Of a DNA stretch of 64,000 bases, positions 42,001 to 48,000 are shown one piece after another. The position numbers are program-made. Position 1 is the first letter of the stretch. Each line of letters starts with the position of its first letter. The DNA lies in IMG/VR virus record IMGVR_UViG_2718217859_000010, one strand, 5' to 3'. This DNA is from a virus. Its lineage: Duplodnaviria > Heunggongvirae > Uroviricota > Caudoviricetes.

Positions 42001-45000
42001 GTGATCACCGGCTTGCCATAGACAGATGCGCCTTTTACCGGCAGCACCCGGAAAACACCGTGTTTTTTTGACCTCTGATAAACGATTTCGCCATCGATCC
42101 CCCCGGTGTCCCAGCAGACACGGGAAATGGTCATTTCGGTTCCGTCTGCATGGCGGTATTTTTTGTTGATCGCCGCATCCACACGTAACAGCGTCTCTTC
42201 CTCATCGGGACGCCCCATAATGATGATTTTATCCACCAGAAAGGCTTCCTCTCCCGGAGCCCATCCCCAGACATACATCTCAAAACGGTTTCGCTGCGAG
42301 TCAATGCCCGCCGTCAGATAAACCACCCGGGCAGGCACCGCCGCCGTGTAACGCACAACCTTATCCATCAGTACCTGGTGATCGAGTTTTTCGCCCACGG
42401 CCTCTTCCCAGGTCTCGCCCAGCGTGGTGTTCACAAAGGTTTTCAGGCCGTTGGGATCTTTCAGTGCATCCAGCCAGTCATAGACTATCTGTACCCAGGT
42501 GGTGAACGGACTGTACGCCGTCCAGATATGGAAAGTGATGGAGCGCGGCGGCGGAATTTCATCACCCCGGGCGCAGAAAAACATCAGGCCGTCACGGGTC
42601 CACATGCCCGTGTTTTCACAGATCCACCGCCCGTTGCTCTGGTCAAGCTCAGACTGATGGATCACGCAGCCATAATGTTCACAGAGGTAGAAAACGCTTT
42701 CGGGGCTGTCCTTCTCCCATTTAAGGCCAAAAGGCGTGGATTCATCGCCAAATTTCAGATACTGCGCCTCCCCACAGTGCGGGCAGGGCACATAAAAACG
42801 CATGAAATGTGCCGACTCGTTAGCGGCTTTTTCGATCTGACAGGTGCCTTTGATTTTAGGCGTCGAGCCGCGAATGGATTTTGGCCATACAGAGCCCTCA
42901 ATACGCTTATCCCCCAGCAGGGTTGGCGAGCCCTCTTTTTCGACATCCGGCTCGAACGAGGAAAGTTCGTCATAGCAGACCACGTCCACGGATTTTTCAC
43001 GGTAGTTTTTGGCGGCAGCGCCGCCCAGGCACCAGAAGCCCACACCCGATGAAAAGCGTTTCAGCGTGAGAGTATTGTCACGATGTTTACGACCCAGCCA
43101 TGGGGAAAGGTCTTTCAGGCATGGCACGTCCCGAATCGTCGCCTCCACGTGAGACTTCATAAAATCTTCAGCGGCAGAATCCGTAGGCTGAAAAAGCAGA
43201 CTGTTTCGGGATTTATGCTCAATAAAATACCCGACCACCCCCAGCAACATCTTTGTATAGCCAACACGGGCAGATTTAATCAGATTAACAGTGCGGATCT
43301 GATCATTCCCCATGCTGTTCATGATGGCGATCTGGAATGGCAGCGTTTTCCATTCTCCCTCACCATATGAAGATTCTTTAGGCAGATAATAATTTTGATC
43401 AGCCCATTCAACTGGCGTCACCGGCAATGCCCTTATCAGGGGCTGTAATGCTGTTGTGACAGCGCTCATCATATTATTCAGTTGTTGCTCTGATATATTC
43501 ATCGAGTAAATCCGGTAATTTATCCCCCGCCCGCGCACACTGATTTGCCCCCTTCGCAATAAGGGTTTTCAGATGGTCAAGATGGCGCGGTGTTAAATCA
43601 GGAAACTGTCGCTGCATGGATAAAGGGATGGAATCAAGCGTACTGGATAACGCCATTGCCAGCTTACTGAGGGCAAAAATACAGAACCCGGTGTCAATAA
43701 GTTTTCCTTTTGACACCTCATTTTTTAACTGCTGTGTAACAGCCTGTTCTGCTGTCAGTTCCCATCTGGCAATAAGCAATTTCTCCTCATAGTCGTCTTC
43801 GCTATCGCCATCAGGCACATCGTTTTTACTTCTCCTCAGATACGATATGTAAAAATCGCGCCAGGCATCCAGATCCAGTTGCCCTCTCTTATTCGATATC
43901 GGGGCACCCGGCAATTTCTGCAATCTGCGAAGCTGGCGATCGGTCAGACTTAAATGCCTGGCAACTTCAGTCTGCGTAGCCACTCCTCACCTCGCAAAAA
44001 CTCTCACCTCACAATCACAACAAAACCGGTCATGTCCGGCTTACATGTCTATTTTTGTTCATGTCCGGTTCACAGAAAACCTGTTTTTATATTTTTCATA
44101 TAGTTAACTTGAAGAGAAACCGGACATGGATCCCGGAAAATTTTCATAAATAGCGAAAACCCGCGAGGTCGCCGCCCCGTAACAGGCCGGATCGCCAGAA
44201 AGGACCCGAAAATGATAATAATTATCAATTAAATAAAAGTTATCTCAACCGACAAGTTCACCATGAAAGAGGACAAATAATGAGTTCGGTCTCAATGCAT
44301 TAATTGATCTGCATCAAATTTAAGTAAAAACATCTTTGGACAATACAGAACACTGCAGTGAATATGGAAAAAGACAATGTCATCGAAGAACAAAACCAGC
44401 AAAACAACAACCCGTAACATCCGTTTTCCCAATCACATGATTGAGCAGATCAATATCGCCCTTGAGCATAAAGGCTCCGGCAACTTTTCGGCATGGGTTA
44501 TTGAAGCCTGTCGCCGGAGGCTGGCAGCAGACATAAAATGTGCCCGTCAGTTAACTGTAACAAAGAATGATACACCGTCTGCTCTGTGATAACTGTTCAT
44601 ATAACCATTTCTTTATATTGCTGAATTTACAAAAAGTCGCAGTTATTAGTCGTATTTATTCCGAATTGAAATCATCCGTCATATAAAATAAAAAAGAATA
44701 ACAATAATAATCTTCTACCCTTATCAGTACCTTTACTGCTGTGCTCCAACACAGCAGTTTTTTTGATTATGCTCACATATTTTTCATCCCCACCGCACTG
44801 CACATTATAACTGTTGCTTTTCAATTCAGGCTTTGTGCAGGTATGTCTGAATCTCCTCCGGGAGAGGTCTTCATCGTTATCAGCCCCAAAACACACCAGC
44901 GACACTGACAAAGAGCCTGCGAGTGCAGTTGCCCCGTTTTCGTTTTATGATGTATTCACCCAGTCAAATAATGAGCAAATTCAATCCATGTCAGACGGCA

Positions 45001-48000
45001 GAGAATCATAAAATTTAACCATCGTGCTTACATAAACAATCCGATAAAGACTTAACATACTTAAAATCGCATATTGCATAAGAATAAATAATAAGTCATC
45101 AAAAAACATCGGGCAAAACTACCGCAACTCCAGTTAAAAAGACAATATATTAATCCAGCGACCTCATTTATTATTCAGAAATGCTTAATAATAAGATATT
45201 TCCTGTTATTCCTTTATGGAGATCGGGTAACGGCTCCATGCCAGTCTTGTTGAATGGCTCAAAAAATAAGAGAATAATTCATAACATATATTGTAATTCA
45301 GGCTCGGTTATTTCGAATTGAATACTTGCATTAAAATCTGATAAAAAATTCGTCATAACAACAACATTCTCTTCTGCATGTGCCATAACCTGCCGTAACA
45401 ACCCGGCAGGTTTTTTTATTGAATAAATTTCCGGTTTCTTCCACCATCGCACCGGCCAGGCGACTATGAGGGGACAACGCCGCGCTCCGTTAACGCAGTA
45501 AACCCCGGTGTGTATCGTTTTTGATTATCCCCGCACACTCGCGCAGAGGAGTCTCCCTGTCGGGCTGCGGTCTCTGTTAATGCGGAAATACGGCGACAAT
45601 ACCGCGCATGGATAATAAGGTCGCTCAACACACTGGCTGTAATGCAGCCGATACCATGCGGCATTTAGCGGCATTCATCGTACACTCAACGGTTAGCTCT
45701 TCATTCGTGGCATTCACCTGAAAGATCCGGGAGTGTAATTGCGTACATTTACCACTGAACGAACCTTCAACAAGAACACGACCACGCTGCAAAATACGGA
45801 ACAGAATTGTTCCCTGAAAAGGCTTTACGGTTACCAGTAATTTCTTCATGCATTCTCCGGATAACAAAAATACTAGTTAATACACTGAGTGCGGATATAT
45901 TCCTGCGCCCCTTCCAGCTGCTTCTGCATCATCATCAACCGCTCTCTGAGAGTGAAATAATCCCGTTCAACTGTGTCTGCCAGTCGGGGGCCGGTTGCAT
46001 TATCCACGCCGGAGGTGCCGGTGGCTTCACGCACGGTACCGGAGCAGGTGGCGTTGATCCGCAGGCGCTTACGACCAGCGGCAACATCAGCACGCAGAGT
46101 TTCATTTTCAGCTCTCGCATCGGCTAATTCCCTCGAGTATCTGGCATCAAGTGCAGCGACATCACGCTGGCGTATCTGCATATCAGTAATTGTCGCGTTC
46201 GCCAGCTCCAGCTCTCTGACTTTTTTATCGCGCTGCGCTTTGTAGGTGATGGCGTTATCGCGGTAATGATTCAGCCCCAGACCAAGCGCACCACAGGCTA
46301 CCAGCAGGACAATAATCACCACACACAGAACACGGTTCATATCCCCCTCACCCCAGCATCCCCGACGAAGACAACATCATCCAGCCTAAGAGCAACCAGC
46401 ATTAGTGAAAATGAAATGCCGACGATTACACAGAGGATCTTCGCCAGCGTTATGAGCTTGTCTGACATGCTTAATCCTCTTCACGATTTCAACGCAATGA
46501 CCAGTTTTGCCAGCCCATACAGCATCGGAGACACAGCAATACCGACCGCCACCCACTTAATAGCAAAAGCCAGCGCTCTGCTGATGTCATCAGTTACAGG
46601 CGCTTTCAGTTCAAGGCCGTTTTTCATAGTCAACCTCAACAGAATTCGTTTATACTTTTCCATGTTCTCCCTTGCCTTATCCAAGGTCAGAAACACAAAA
46701 CCCCGCTTGCTGCCAACAAACGGGGTTTTACTTTTATTCACTTAGGTTTTGCCAGTTCGCAGGATTTCGTGTTATCCGTCCGCGTTGGTCAACGTCATTT
46801 TTCAGCAAAATATTCTGCTTATCTGTCGATTCCCCAGCACGCCAGCGCACTTTCCTGATCTCGCCGGGATACCTGACCGTAGCAATTATTTGAGCGGATA
46901 CGGCAGTCTCTGCCACCGTCCTTAATCCACCAGCGAATCGCTTCACACGCTCCCCTGCGATCGCCTGCATTAATTCGTTTATAAAACGTCGACGGGAAAC
47001 ACTTACCGGGGCCAATGTTATACGGACAGAATGACGCGATCCCCGCTTTCTGGGGTTCAGTCAGTGGCACTTTGATGTTTTTCGCCACCCATGCCAGCGC
47101 CTTGTCACGTTCAATGGCGTTAACCCGGTCGCATTTTTCCTTTGACAGCTTCATGCCAGGAATAACAGGCTTACCATCCACCCGGGTGGCTCCACGGCAG
47201 ATGGTCCAGATCCCCGCACCATCACGGTATGCCGTGGTGTGGTTACCTTCCTTTTCATCCAGAAACTGGTCGAGGATTTCAGGCGCAGGCGCACCTGCGG
47301 CAATCAGCGCCAGAACGGCAGCCGACAGACCGTATTTGATTTTGGTGTTCATGGATATTTATCAGGATTTATCGGTTCCGAATCCCTGGATATGTTAAGT
47401 CTTCAGCCCGCCAGTGGTGGGCACTGGTGTTTTACCTGATGGCTGAAATATATCTGACAATTCCCGTCGAGGATTTAGCAATGTATAACGATGAACATAA
47501 ATAGGTGATGCCTCTAATTAGTTGAATCTGATGTATAATTCGGGCTTTTGAGGTTATCTCATGGCCAGTGTTAATATTCATTGTCCCCGTTGTCAGTCAG
47601 CTCGGGTTTACCGCCATGGTCAGAACCCTAAAGGCCGTGACAGATTTCGCTGCCGTGACTGCCACCGTGTATTTCAGCTCACTTATACTTATCAAGCACG
47701 TAAGCCGGGTATGAAAGAGCTGATCACTGAAATGGCCTTTAATGGTGCCGGGGTTCGCGATACCGCCAGGACACTGAAAATTGGTATTAACACCGTCATC
47801 CGGACTTTAAAAAACTCGCGCCAAAGCGAATAACTTCTTCGCCTGTTGCCCATGCTGATGTGGCGCTTATCTGCGAGCTTGATGAGCAATGGAGCTACGT
47901 TGGCAGTAAAGCCCGGCAACATTGGCTCTGGTACGCGTACAACACCAAAACAGGCGGTGTACTGGCCTACACTTTTGGTCCCCGAACCGATCAAACGTGC

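What the first reader, a model, noticed from the sequence alone, without database searches (positions are those of the whole stretch)
44377..45624. Orphan RHH protein next to cos, followed by ~1 kb of AT-rich DNA with two plus-strand terminators and no ORF
A 70-aa ribbon-helix-helix protein (44377-44589) is encoded opposite to the flanking phage genes. Downstream lie two strong plus-strand terminators (44735-44765 and 45389-45417); the second has no protein-coding gene upstream. This is the bor-equivalent moron position, and the layout suggests a regulator plus one or two small RNAs.
Basis: inference. Interest (0 to 1): 0.5.

Follow-up and report, generated by a model that had tools for sequence, protein, structure and literature searches.

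The report
Prophage HnrS small-RNA pair beside ylcI
The "empty" AT-rich stretch next to the phage cos site holds a copy of HnrS, a recently described prophage small RNA that switches off the gene silencer Hha, followed by a second, diverged and undescribed copy, both downstream of a small conserved lambda-family protein (YlcI) of unknown function.

Summary
A 70-aa ORF (44377-44589, +) lies 200 bp from lambda-type cosN, antisense to the late genes, and is followed by about 830 bp of 28-46% GC DNA. That DNA has two strong plus-strand intrinsic terminators and no annotated or conserved ORF.

The protein is not an orphan. It belongs to the YlcI/YnfO (DUF3950) family, also found in lambda, DLP12 and Qin. 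A ribbon-helix-helix fold is likely but only weakly shown.

Terminator 1 ends an allele of HnrS (EcOnc10-12). HnrS is a 66-nt Hfq-bound sRNA of EHEC prophages that represses hha (Poudyal et al., PLoS Pathog 2026). The window copy is 91% identical, with its first 23 nt, including the hha seed, unchanged.

Terminator 2 ends a diverged paralogue (69% identical). It keeps the promoter layout, the AUAACAAYAAY 5' end, the UCUUCU core and a covarying terminator. Its distal seed differs, and I found no description of it in the held literature.

The tandem cassette also exists as a 75%-identical allele in which both RNA units stay conserved. The second unit also stands alone in porcine ETEC prophages. 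No expression data exist for it.

The main element is already known and the second sRNA is a new family member.

The parts
44166..44177 (-). cosN cohesive-end sequence (GGGCGGCGACCT) of a lambda-type cos site
   Evidence: Exact match to the lambda 12-nt end. Surrounding sequence is 90-95% conserved between alleles.
44303..44317 (+). Conserved palindrome ATTGATCTGCATCAA in the putative ylcI promoter region. Operator role is speculative.
   Evidence: 88% conserved island upstream of ylcI in the window, the B allele, lambda and K-12-like loci. No function was tested.
44377..44589 (+). ylcI/ynfO-family gene (DUF3950), 70 aa; probable ribbon-helix-helix DNA-binding protein
   Evidence: Family: Pfam PF13132 E=3.8e-20 (71.9 bits, cutoff 25); NCBIfam NF041551 36.5 bits (cutoff 30); annotated WP_000095729.1.

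Conservation: residues 1-50 are near-invariant and the C-terminal tail is hypervariable.

RHH support is weak:
- diverse profile against PDB: CdbA E=0.022, CopG-family RHH E=0.22
- AF2 model with two helices
44666..44694 (+). Promoter of the HnrS allele: -35 TTGAAA (44666-44671), 17-nt spacer, -10 TAAAAA (44689-44694)
   Evidence: Aligns column for column with the Sakai HnrS upstream region; TTGAA is invariant in all 8 family variants. Coordinates checked. The TSS is inferred, not measured in this strain.
44698..44764 (+).
   Evidence: - 62/68 identical to Sakai HnrS, with the first 23 nt identical.
- The Sakai sequence was identified through the mazF complementarity and the EcOnc12 coordinates.
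- CM score 108 bits; fold z = -4.9.
- 8-bp pairing CUUCUACC:GGUAGAAG at the hha RBS is retained.
44766..44934 (.). Conserved non-coding block of unknown function directly downstream of terminator 1
   Evidence: - 75-95% identical between alleles A and B, where nearby spacer is 33-60%.
- Frameshifting indels and no shared ORF.
- No structure signal on either strand, z = -0.4 and +0.4.
- No Rfam hit. Found only in the 23 genomes that carry the tandem cassette.
45318..45347 (+). Promoter of the second sRNA unit: -35 TTGAAT (45318-45323), 18-nt spacer, extended -10 TGATAAAAA (45339-45347)
   Evidence: Same layout as the HnrS promoter in alignment A3. The block TTATTYCGAATTGAA is shared with the T1 unit. 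Coordinates checked. Inferred only.
45355..45417 (+).
   Evidence: - Unit-to-unit global alignment with the T1 unit: z=9.4, with 0/5000 shuffles, 0/1700 genomic and 0/588 AT-rich controls reaching it.
- CM score 119 bits; fold z = -4.1.
- 87% identical to allele T2b, with a 21-nt seed stretch (45366-45386) 100% conserved amid about 50% flanks.
- Two compensatory pairs in the terminator stem across the family.
- Stands alone, 99% identical, in porcine ETEC prophages.
45432..45609 (.). GC-rich conserved phage backbone between the sRNA cassette and the 74-aa gene. This is the right boundary of the variable cargo slot.
   Evidence: 93-97% identical between alleles A and B, and about 92% to Sp9, where it directly follows the single HnrS terminator.

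Best explanation
The region is a lysogen-expressed moron cluster in the slot between Rz and cos of a lambdoid prophage. It is read antisense to the late operon and has three parts.

1. **ylcI.** This is a small protein conserved across the lambda family and probably has a ribbon-helix-helix fold. Its function is unknown.

2. **An allele of HnrS.** HnrS is transcribed from its own sigma-70 promoter and ends at terminator 1. By homology it is an Hfq-dependent sRNA with these features:
   - an AAN-rich 5' tract and a U-tailed hairpin that bind Hfq
   - the effect of lowering Hha and relieving Hha/H-NS silencing of horizontally acquired genes

3. **A diverged HnrS paralogue ending at terminator 2.** It has the same promoter architecture and 5' end and keeps the UCUUCU core. 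The downstream half of its seed is different. It probably acts in the same way, on hha and/or a shifted set of targets.

**Shown versus inferred.**
- Shown here: sequence identities, homology statistics, promoter, terminator and seed conservation, and distribution.
- Shown by others, for the Sakai orthologue only: expression, Hfq binding and hha repression.
- Inferred: expression and function of the window allele and of the paralogue, and any role of YlcI.
For: **T1 is HnrS.**
- EcOnc12 coordinates, shifted by about +128-134 nt as calibrated on the AgvB-like EcOnc03, fall exactly on the terminator downstream of the Sp9 ylcI homologue.
- That sequence contains the reverse complement of the last 15 nt of mazF, as the HnrS paper reports. 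From AUAAC to the U7 tail it is 66 nt.
- The window T1 RNA is 91% identical, with an identical first 23 nt.
- The hha pairing is unchanged.

**T2 is a paralogue.**
- Alignment z=9.4, with no control reaching it.
- All family variants share these invariant blocks: TTGAA at -35, A-rich -10, ATAAYAAYAA, TCTTCT, CTGC...GCAG and the T-run.
- The terminator stem covaries: AU<->CG, and UA<->UG<->CG.

**Selection on both units.**
- In the 75%-identical allele B (L005, L055, L058), identity peaks at the ylcI N-terminus, the T1 unit (82-95%) and the T2 RNA (88%).
- Spacers drop to 33-60%.

**Modularity.** T2a alone, 99% identical from 45234 onward, sits between Rz and terS in ETEC prophages that lack ylcI.

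**Distribution.**
- The HnrS type is in 567/5426 complete E. coli genomes. The T2 type is in 42.
- GB089 shows 5 matching places for the T1-unit query and 4 each for the T2-unit and middle-region queries.
Against: - There are no expression, Hfq-binding or target data for this strain, for the window HnrS allele or for T2.
- T2 is rare (42 genomes) and could be a decaying duplicate.
- Predicted hha duplexes are no better than shuffled seeds, for T2 (-13.5 kcal/mol, 13% of shuffles as good) and equally for bona fide HnrS (8%). Target assignment for T2 is therefore open.
- The window HnrS allele has lost the mazF complementarity.
- It also has a 3-nt deletion between the -10 and the inferred start, so its 5' end is uncertain by about 3 nt.
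- The RHH assignment for YlcI rests on weak scores.
Confidence: 0.78

Rival explanations
1. Terminator 2 and its upstream unit are a non-functional relic. On this view it is a decaying duplicate of HnrS left by recombination between prophages, or simply a terminator that insulates the late region. Only the first sRNA would be functional.
For: - T2 occurs in only 42/5426 genomes.
- No expression data exist.
- Its seed differs from the validated one, and its hha pairing is interrupted.
- The spacer between the two units is poorly conserved in places.
Against: - Promoter hexamers, the 5' end, a 21-nt seed stretch (100%) and the hairpin are conserved between alleles T2a and T2b, while flanks are about 50%.
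- The unit is retained intact, 99% identical, as a stand-alone module in a different phage backbone.
- Compensatory changes keep the stem.
Confidence: 0.3
2. The ~830-bp gene-free stretch is a degraded protein-coding moron, such as a former bor/lom-like or other cargo gene. The terminators would be leftovers of that gene.
For: - The same slot holds small protein genes in other prophages: a TonB-family protein and hypothetical proteins.
- Mechanical ORFs of 46-79 aa are present.
Against: - No Pfam or NCBIfam match for any ORF.
- No phage match to the middle part, even at blastn sensitivity.
- Alleles A and B differ by 1-2-nt indels and have stops in all frames.
- Both terminators belong to units homologous to a validated sRNA.
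Confidence: 0.05
3. The RNAs are not independent genes but 3'-UTR products of the ylcI mRNA. YlcI plus RNA would then form one functional unit, for example an autoregulated RHH/sRNA or toxin-antitoxin-like pair.
For: - HnrS lies 110-175 nt downstream of the ylcI stop on the same strand, both in the window and in Sp9.
Against: - The HnrS paper reports a primary 5' end from dRNA-seq.
- A conserved -35/-10 precedes each RNA.
- T2a occurs without ylcI.
- Lambda and K-12 ylcI homologues have no HnrS.
- The ylcI C-terminus and 3' UTR between the gene and the HnrS promoter are the least conserved part of the module, at 25-62%.
Confidence: 0.1

Closest known systems
HnrS (EcOnc10/11/12) of E. coli O157:H7 Sakai prophages Sp12, Sp10, Sp9 (Tree et al. 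2014, PMC4104026; Poudyal et al. 2026, PMC13502914)
   Same: **T1 unit:**
- same position, downstream of a ylcI homologue in the late region and antisense to the late genes
- same promoter layout
- 91% identity, with an identical 23-nt 5' end and seed
- same terminator architecture

**T2 unit:**
- same architecture and 5' end
- the UCUUCU core is kept
   Different: **T1:**
- it has lost the perfect 15-nt mazF complementarity (CCCUUAUCAGUAC against CCCAAUCAGUAC)
- it has a 3-nt deletion upstream of the start

**T2:**
- only 69% identical
- the distal seed is replaced (GCAUGUGCCAU)
- the loop differs and the stem is changed by compensatory substitutions

**Arrangement:** two family members occur in tandem here, against a single copy per prophage in the published description.
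AgvB/AsxR anti-sRNAs, STnc100 and Esr41 at the PR' moron site of lambdoid prophages
   Same: They are short Hfq-binding prophage sRNAs with intrinsic terminators. They are encoded in moron slots, multicopy through multiple prophages, and enriched in EHEC/EPEC.
   Different: - They sit at a different slot, downstream of Q/PR'. In this window that slot is at 49580-49953.
- They share no sequence similarity with this region, and Rfam finds nothing at 44590-45420.
- AgvB and AsxR act as sponges of core sRNAs, whereas HnrS represses an mRNA.
Lambda bor / lom type morons
   Same: Same kind of slot (between Rz and cos), opposite orientation to the late operon, own promoter and terminator, and expression expected in the lysogen.
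   Different: The cargo here is a small DNA-binding-type protein plus non-coding RNAs, not an outer-membrane lipoprotein. There is no homology to Bor.
YlcI (DLP12) / YnfO (Qin) of E. coli K-12 and the unnamed homologue at the right end of phage lambda
   Same: Same family (PF13132/NF041551). The position next to cos and the Nu1-type terminase gene is the same, and so is the conserved upstream region including the palindrome.
   Different: Those loci are followed by other genes (ybcW/ybcV-like, ydfO-like), not by HnrS units. The C-terminal tails are unrelated.
Arc/Mnt, CopG, ParD and KacA type ribbon-helix-helix proteins
   Same: - Two helices joined by a G-x-x-N-F-S turn.
- Size of the conserved core, about 50 aa.
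   Different: - No partner toxin gene is present.
- No operator has been defined.

Membership tests
HnrS sRNA family (T1 unit, 44698-44764) | Sequence homology to the Sakai HnrS RNA | tested here: met
   62/68 identical, with the first 23 nt identical. The Sakai sequence was fixed by the EcOnc12 coordinates and the mazF complement.
HnrS sRNA family (T1 unit) | Seed complementary to the hha ribosome-binding site | tested here: met
   CUUCUACC pairs with GGUAGAAG at -9..+5 of K-12 hha. The duplex is identical to that of Sakai HnrS, -12.1 kcal/mol.
HnrS sRNA family (T1 unit) | Perfect 15-nt complementarity to the 3' end of the mazF coding sequence | tested here: not met
   CTACCCAATCAGTAC is absent from the window unit, which reads CTACCCTTATCAGTAC. 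The paper found no function for this pairing, so I do not treat it as disqualifying.
HnrS sRNA family (T1 and T2 units) | ~66-nt RNA with its own promoter and an intrinsic terminator, in the late region of a prophage | tested here: met
   At sequence level only:
- -35/-10 at the conserved spacing
- 9-bp GC-rich hairpins plus U7
- fold z = -4.9 and -4.1
- prophage late-region context
HnrS sRNA family (T1 and T2 units) | Expression, Hfq binding and Hfq-dependent stability | not testable with these tools
   Data exist only for the Sakai orthologue.
HnrS sRNA family (T2 unit, 45355-45417) | Homology to HnrS units | tested here: met
   Global alignment z=9.4, with no shuffle or genomic control reaching it. 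69% RNA identity. Shared invariant blocks. Note that the CM was built with T2 included, so its 119-bit score is not independent.
HnrS sRNA family (T2 unit) | Seed complementary to the hha ribosome-binding site | tested here: inconclusive
   The predicted duplex is 7 bp (one G-U) plus 4 bp across a bulge, -13.5 kcal/mol at -13..+5. 13% of shuffled seeds do as well.
YlcI/YnfO (DUF3950) | Match to the family models above the curated cut-offs | tested here: met
   PF13132: 71.9 bits (cutoff 25). NF041551: 36.5 bits (cutoff 30).
Ribbon-helix-helix (Arc/MetJ/CopG) superfamily | Strand-helix-helix topology and detectable relationship to solved RHH proteins | tested here: inconclusive
   - AF2 models show an extended segment at 13-18, then H19-32 and H34/39-59/64, with pLDDT 76 and 68.
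- The strand cannot form in a monomer model.
- The top two profile hits in PDB are RHH proteins in register: CdbA E=0.022, CopG-family E=0.22.
- Foldseek gives E>1, and the second model gave nothing.
- Pfam RHH_6 matches weakly in 2/29 relatives.
Ribbon-helix-helix superfamily | Dimeric sequence-specific DNA binding | not testable with these tools
   Only a conserved palindrome upstream of the gene (44303-44317) can be pointed to.
Any Rfam 15 family (including AgvB, AsxR, Esr41, STnc100) | Covariance-model match in 44590-45420 | tested here: not met
   No match at E<=1 in 40000-50000, apart from STnc100 and an Esr41-like hit at 49580-49953.
Protein-coding moron (bor/lom-like) | Conserved ORF with protein homology between the two terminators | tested here: not met
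   No family hits. No annotation. Frameshifting indels between alleles.

The most novel reading that the evidence does not exclude
The second unit (45355-45417) is an expressed, Hfq-dependent sRNA, effectively an 'HnrS2'. Its altered seed (UUCUCUUCUGCAUGUGCCAU) would give it a target set distinct from or broader than HnrS.

On this reading some prophages carry a conserved two-seed counter-silencing cassette. The conserved 170-nt block between the two RNAs (44766-44934) would then be a further regulatory element. The same RNA would also have spread on its own into porcine ETEC prophages.
Probability: 0.45. Interest if true: 0.45.

Novelty: new member of a known kind. Interest (0 to 1): 0.3.

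Why it matters
HnrS is so far the only phage-encoded sRNA shown to counteract xenogeneic silencing, by repressing hha, and it was described as identical single copies per prophage.

This locus shows three new things:
- The family has sequence diversity in the seed.
- Two diverged members can be maintained in tandem.
- One member travels without ylcI in LEE-unrelated porcine ETEC phages.

That gives natural seed variants for testing which targets matter (hha, mazF or others). It also widens the pathotypes in which the mechanism may operate.

In addition, it ties the conserved but unstudied lambda-family gene ylcI to a defined moron slot.

The gain is incremental. The principal element and its mechanism are already published.

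Tried and rejected
- **Rfam scan of 40-50 kb.** Nothing in the region. HnrS is not in Rfam 15.
- **Pseudogene hypothesis.** The ORF family scans, the phage blastn of the middle part and the six-frame comparison of two alleles all gave no coding signal. An apparent shared peptide, EIQ(T/I)YL(H/E)KA*, on the minus strand has no start codon in the window and is explained by nucleotide conservation.
- **Third, decayed HnrS-like unit in the spacer.** The motif AATTCAGGCT occurs at both 44823 and 45295. The CM with filters off gave at most 5.6 bits there, so this was rejected or remains undetectable.
- **Structure in the conserved block 44766-44934.** z = -0.4 and +0.4.
- **Internal complementarity between the HnrS 5' end and 45193-45215.** 78% over 23 nt. 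It is AT-rich, at chance level and not conserved in allele B.
- **Pas sRNAs of EPEC as possible identities.** They are 80-240 nt and sit in other contexts, so this was rejected.
- **Loose family pattern in IMG/VR.** Mostly AT-rich noise. After filtering, only the five known allele classes remained.
- **YlcI homologue loci from other species.** No HnrS was found downstream in lambda, K-12-like, Tatumella or Rouxiella loci. Many 'hits' in unrelated taxa are lambda-DNA contamination.
- **Fold search with the second AF2 model.** Uninformative.
- **HMM search of PDB with the shallow alignment.** No hits.

Full report
**Observation**

The window around the finding is the late region of a lambdoid prophage read on the minus strand. 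It matches E. coli GB089 (ground beef) at 100% over the 1.9-kb query and over 43900-45900. The minus-strand genes are:
- terminase large subunit, 41574-43559
- Nu1-type small subunit, 43474-43983
- a 74-aa hypothetical gene, 45626-45850
- Rz, 45873-46340
- lysozyme, 46819-47352

The lambda cohesive-end sequence is at 44166-44177.

The 70-aa ORF 44377-44589 is on the plus strand. The two plus-strand terminators are real and strong:
- T1: 9-bp stem at 44735-44758 plus T7.
- T2: 9-bp stem at 45387-45412 plus T7.

The region holds 5 terminator-like sites, against 1.8 +/- 1.5 in shuffles. GC falls to 28-46% between 44500 and 45400. RefSeq annotates nothing between 44590 and 45625.

**The protein**

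It is not an orphan.
- It matches Pfam DUF3950 (PF13132, E=3.8e-20) and NCBIfam YlcI_YnfO_N, both above cut-off.
- Homologues sit next to cos in K-12 DLP12/Qin-like loci and in phage lambda itself. The lambda copy was seen through many lambda-DNA contaminant contigs.
- Residues 1-50 are nearly invariant and the C-terminal tail is hypervariable.
- The family is narrow: 188 representatives at E<=1e-3 among 1.84 billion proteins.

The ribbon-helix-helix idea is plausible but only weakly supported.
- AF2 gives an extended N-I-R-F-P segment followed by two helices, with pLDDT 76 and 68.
- A diverse family profile finds two RHH proteins as the best PDB matches, in the expected register: CdbA at E=0.022 and a CopG-family protein at E=0.22.
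- Foldseek hits (ParD2, Arc, TCP domains) all have E>1. The second model gave nothing.
- The function is unknown, and the held literature has no functional study.

**Terminator 1 is HnrS**

The 3' UTR and T1 stretch (44593-44765) is about 87% identical in several hundred E. coli genomes, including O157 Sakai prophage Sp9 downstream of ECs1788.

The link to the published RNA runs as follows.
1. Tree et al. 2014 list the ECs1786...ECs1788 intergenic region among the top Hfq-bound intergenic regions. They list EcOnc12 (Sp9), EcOnc11 (Sp10) and EcOnc10 (Sp12) as orphan Hfq peaks.
2. I calibrated the coordinate shift between genome versions on the AgvB-like EcOnc03. EcOnc12 then falls exactly on the Sp9 hairpin homologous to T1.
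3. Poudyal et al. (bioRxiv 2025; PLoS Pathog 2026) renamed EcOnc10-12 HnrS. It is a 66-nt Hfq-associated sRNA with mapped 5' and 3' ends and northern support. It represses hha by pairing at its RBS, as shown by compensatory mutations. It also has 15 nt of perfect complementarity to the end of mazF.
4. I confirmed the identification. The reverse complement of the last 15 nt of K-12 mazF is present in the Sp9 sequence. The stretch from AUAAC to the U7 tail is exactly 66 nt.

The window copy (44698-44764) is 62/68 identical, and its first 23 nt, including the seed, are identical. The 8-bp pairing CUUCUACC:GGUAGAAG with the hha RBS is retained. The mazF complementarity is broken.

The window allele occurs in 19 of 5426 complete E. 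coli genomes. A further 549 records have the ~86%-identical type seen in Sakai.

**Terminator 2 is a diverged paralogue**

The 110-nt unit ending at T2 aligns with the T1 unit along its whole length. The global score has z=9.4, with 0/5000 dinucleotide shuffles, 0/1700 genomic windows and 0/588 AT-rich windows reaching it.

Eight distinct variants were aligned: Sakai HnrS, two T1 alleles, three T2a and two T2b. They share these features:
- -35 TTGAA(A/T)
- a 17-18-nt spacer
- an A-rich -10, with a TGn extension in the T2 units
- the 5' end ATAAYAAYAA, giving three to four AAN triplets of the kind Hfq binds
- TCTTCT
- CTGC...GCAG and the T-run

The terminator helix shows two compensatory positions: AU<->CG, and UA<->UG<->CG. 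The predicted RNA is 45355-45417, about 63 nt. It folds as an open 5' half plus a terminator hairpin, z=-4.1.

It is 69% identical to HnrS. After the UCUUCU core, its seed reads GCAUGUGCCAU instead of ACCCAAUCAGUAC. A pairing with the hha RBS is still possible (-13.5 kcal/mol) but is not statistically distinguishable from shuffles. The same is true of the validated HnrS duplex.

**Evidence that both units are under selection**

*The diverged allele.* A second allele of the whole cassette, about 75% identical over 1.47 kb, has the same order: ylcI, T1, spacer, T2. It is seen in E. coli ST866 and in the IMG/VR contigs L055 and L058. Identity along this alignment varies as follows:

| Segment | Identity |
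|---|---|
| cos | 90-95% |
| ylcI N-terminus | 85-93% |
| T1 unit | 82-95% |
| T2 RNA | 88% |
| ylcI tail and 3' UTR | 25-62% |
| most of the spacer | 25-60% |

Within the T2 RNA, the 21-nt seed stretch 45366-45386 is 100% conserved.

*The stand-alone unit.* The T2a unit alone, 99% identical from 45234 onward, lies between Rz and a different terminase module in 19 porcine ETEC genomes and several IMG/VR contigs. These carry no ylcI or T1.

*Other points.*
- In Sp9, the single HnrS terminator is followed directly by the backbone sequence that in the window follows T2. The slot therefore carries one or two units.
- The covariance model finds no other copy in the 64-kb window, nor in lambda or K-12-type ylcI loci.
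- GB089 shows 4 matching places each for the T2-unit and middle-region queries and 5 for the T1-unit query. At least one of these is in another prophage, where an IS66-family element adjoins a T1 unit whose promoter half is missing.

**What remains unexplained**

*The block after T1.* A block directly after T1 (44766-44934) is 75-95% conserved between the two alleles. It has frameshifting indels and no shared ORF. It shows no structural signal on either strand and no database match. It exists only in the 23 genomes that carry the tandem cassette.

*The role of YlcI.* I could not establish any regulatory link between YlcI and the RNAs. The least conserved part of the module lies between them. 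T2a does without ylcI, and most ylcI loci lack HnrS.

**Comparison and novelty**

- The first RNA is an allele of a known, experimentally characterised sRNA.
- The protein is a member of a known family of unknown function.
- The second RNA is, as far as the searchable literature shows, an undescribed member of the HnrS family with a changed seed (the HnrS paper mentions no paralogues and does not mention ylcI). The conserved tandem arrangement and the stand-alone ETEC form are also new observations.
- The region is unrelated to the AgvB/AsxR/STnc100/Esr41 sRNAs, which occupy the PR' moron site elsewhere in the window, and to the EPEC Pas sRNAs.

**Verdict**

Most of it is already explained by published work. 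The residual novelty is a probable second HnrS-family sRNA, whose expression and targets remain to be tested.

Noticed in passing
window 49580-49953: STnc100 (RF02076, 163.8 bits, minus strand, 49736-49953) lies convergent with an Esr41-like element (39 bits, below the gathering score, plus strand, 49580-49670). This is the known PR' moron-site sRNA pair of lambdoid prophages.
   Followed up: no
window 47561-48255: An IS1 element (with a frameshifted transposase) is inserted in the lysis region. It lies between the lysozyme gene and the holin-side genes.
   Followed up: no
L005 1745-1795; also L058 and L055 (B-allele ylcI 3' end): A 7-nt tandem repeat (ACTGACA)n has 2 to about 6 copies in different contigs, at the end of the conserved ylcI core. 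It shifts the reading frame of the C-terminal tail. This is a possible slipped-strand variable region, and it fits the hypervariable tails of the family.
   Followed up: partly
window 44766-44934: A conserved non-coding block lies directly after the HnrS terminator. It is 75-95% identical between 75%-diverged alleles. It has no ORF, no structure z-score and no database match. It contains AATTCAGGCT, which recurs 13 nt upstream of the -35 of the second sRNA.
   Followed up: partly
window 45432-45609: An ~180-bp GC-rich (54%) stretch is 93-97% conserved across all backbones examined (window, B allele, Sp9, ETEC). It has no annotated gene. It lies between the sRNA slot and the 74-aa hypothetical gene and marks the right boundary of the cargo slot.
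   Followed up: no
L010-L036 and others: Dozens of 'YlcI homologues' appear in assemblies of unrelated taxa such as Streptomyces, Pseudomonas and Cohnella. They sit on contigs of ~3.5 kb or ~48.5 kb and are phage lambda control-DNA contamination. They show incidentally that lambda encodes a YlcI homologue 190-380 nt from its right end.
   Followed up: partly
protein P0236: One distant family member is a 120-aa fusion of a YlcI-like N-terminus with the N-terminal DNA-binding part of a small terminase subunit (Pfam Terminase_2, E=1.6e-11). This may hint at a packaging-related role, or it may be a gene-calling artefact.
   Followed up: no
L188 (GB089 335500-340500) 2653-2717: In a second prophage of the same genome, the cassette's T1 unit matches only model positions 50-114, so its promoter half is missing. 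An IS66-family element is annotated from about 90 nt beyond the truncation point.
   Followed up: partly
window 44303-44317 and 44445-44454: The palindrome ATTGATCTGCATCAA upstream of ylcI is conserved in lambda and K-12-like loci. Its 10-nt half recurs inverted inside the ylcI coding region. It could be an operator for the RHH-like protein, but the repeat is at chance level for this length.
   Followed up: no
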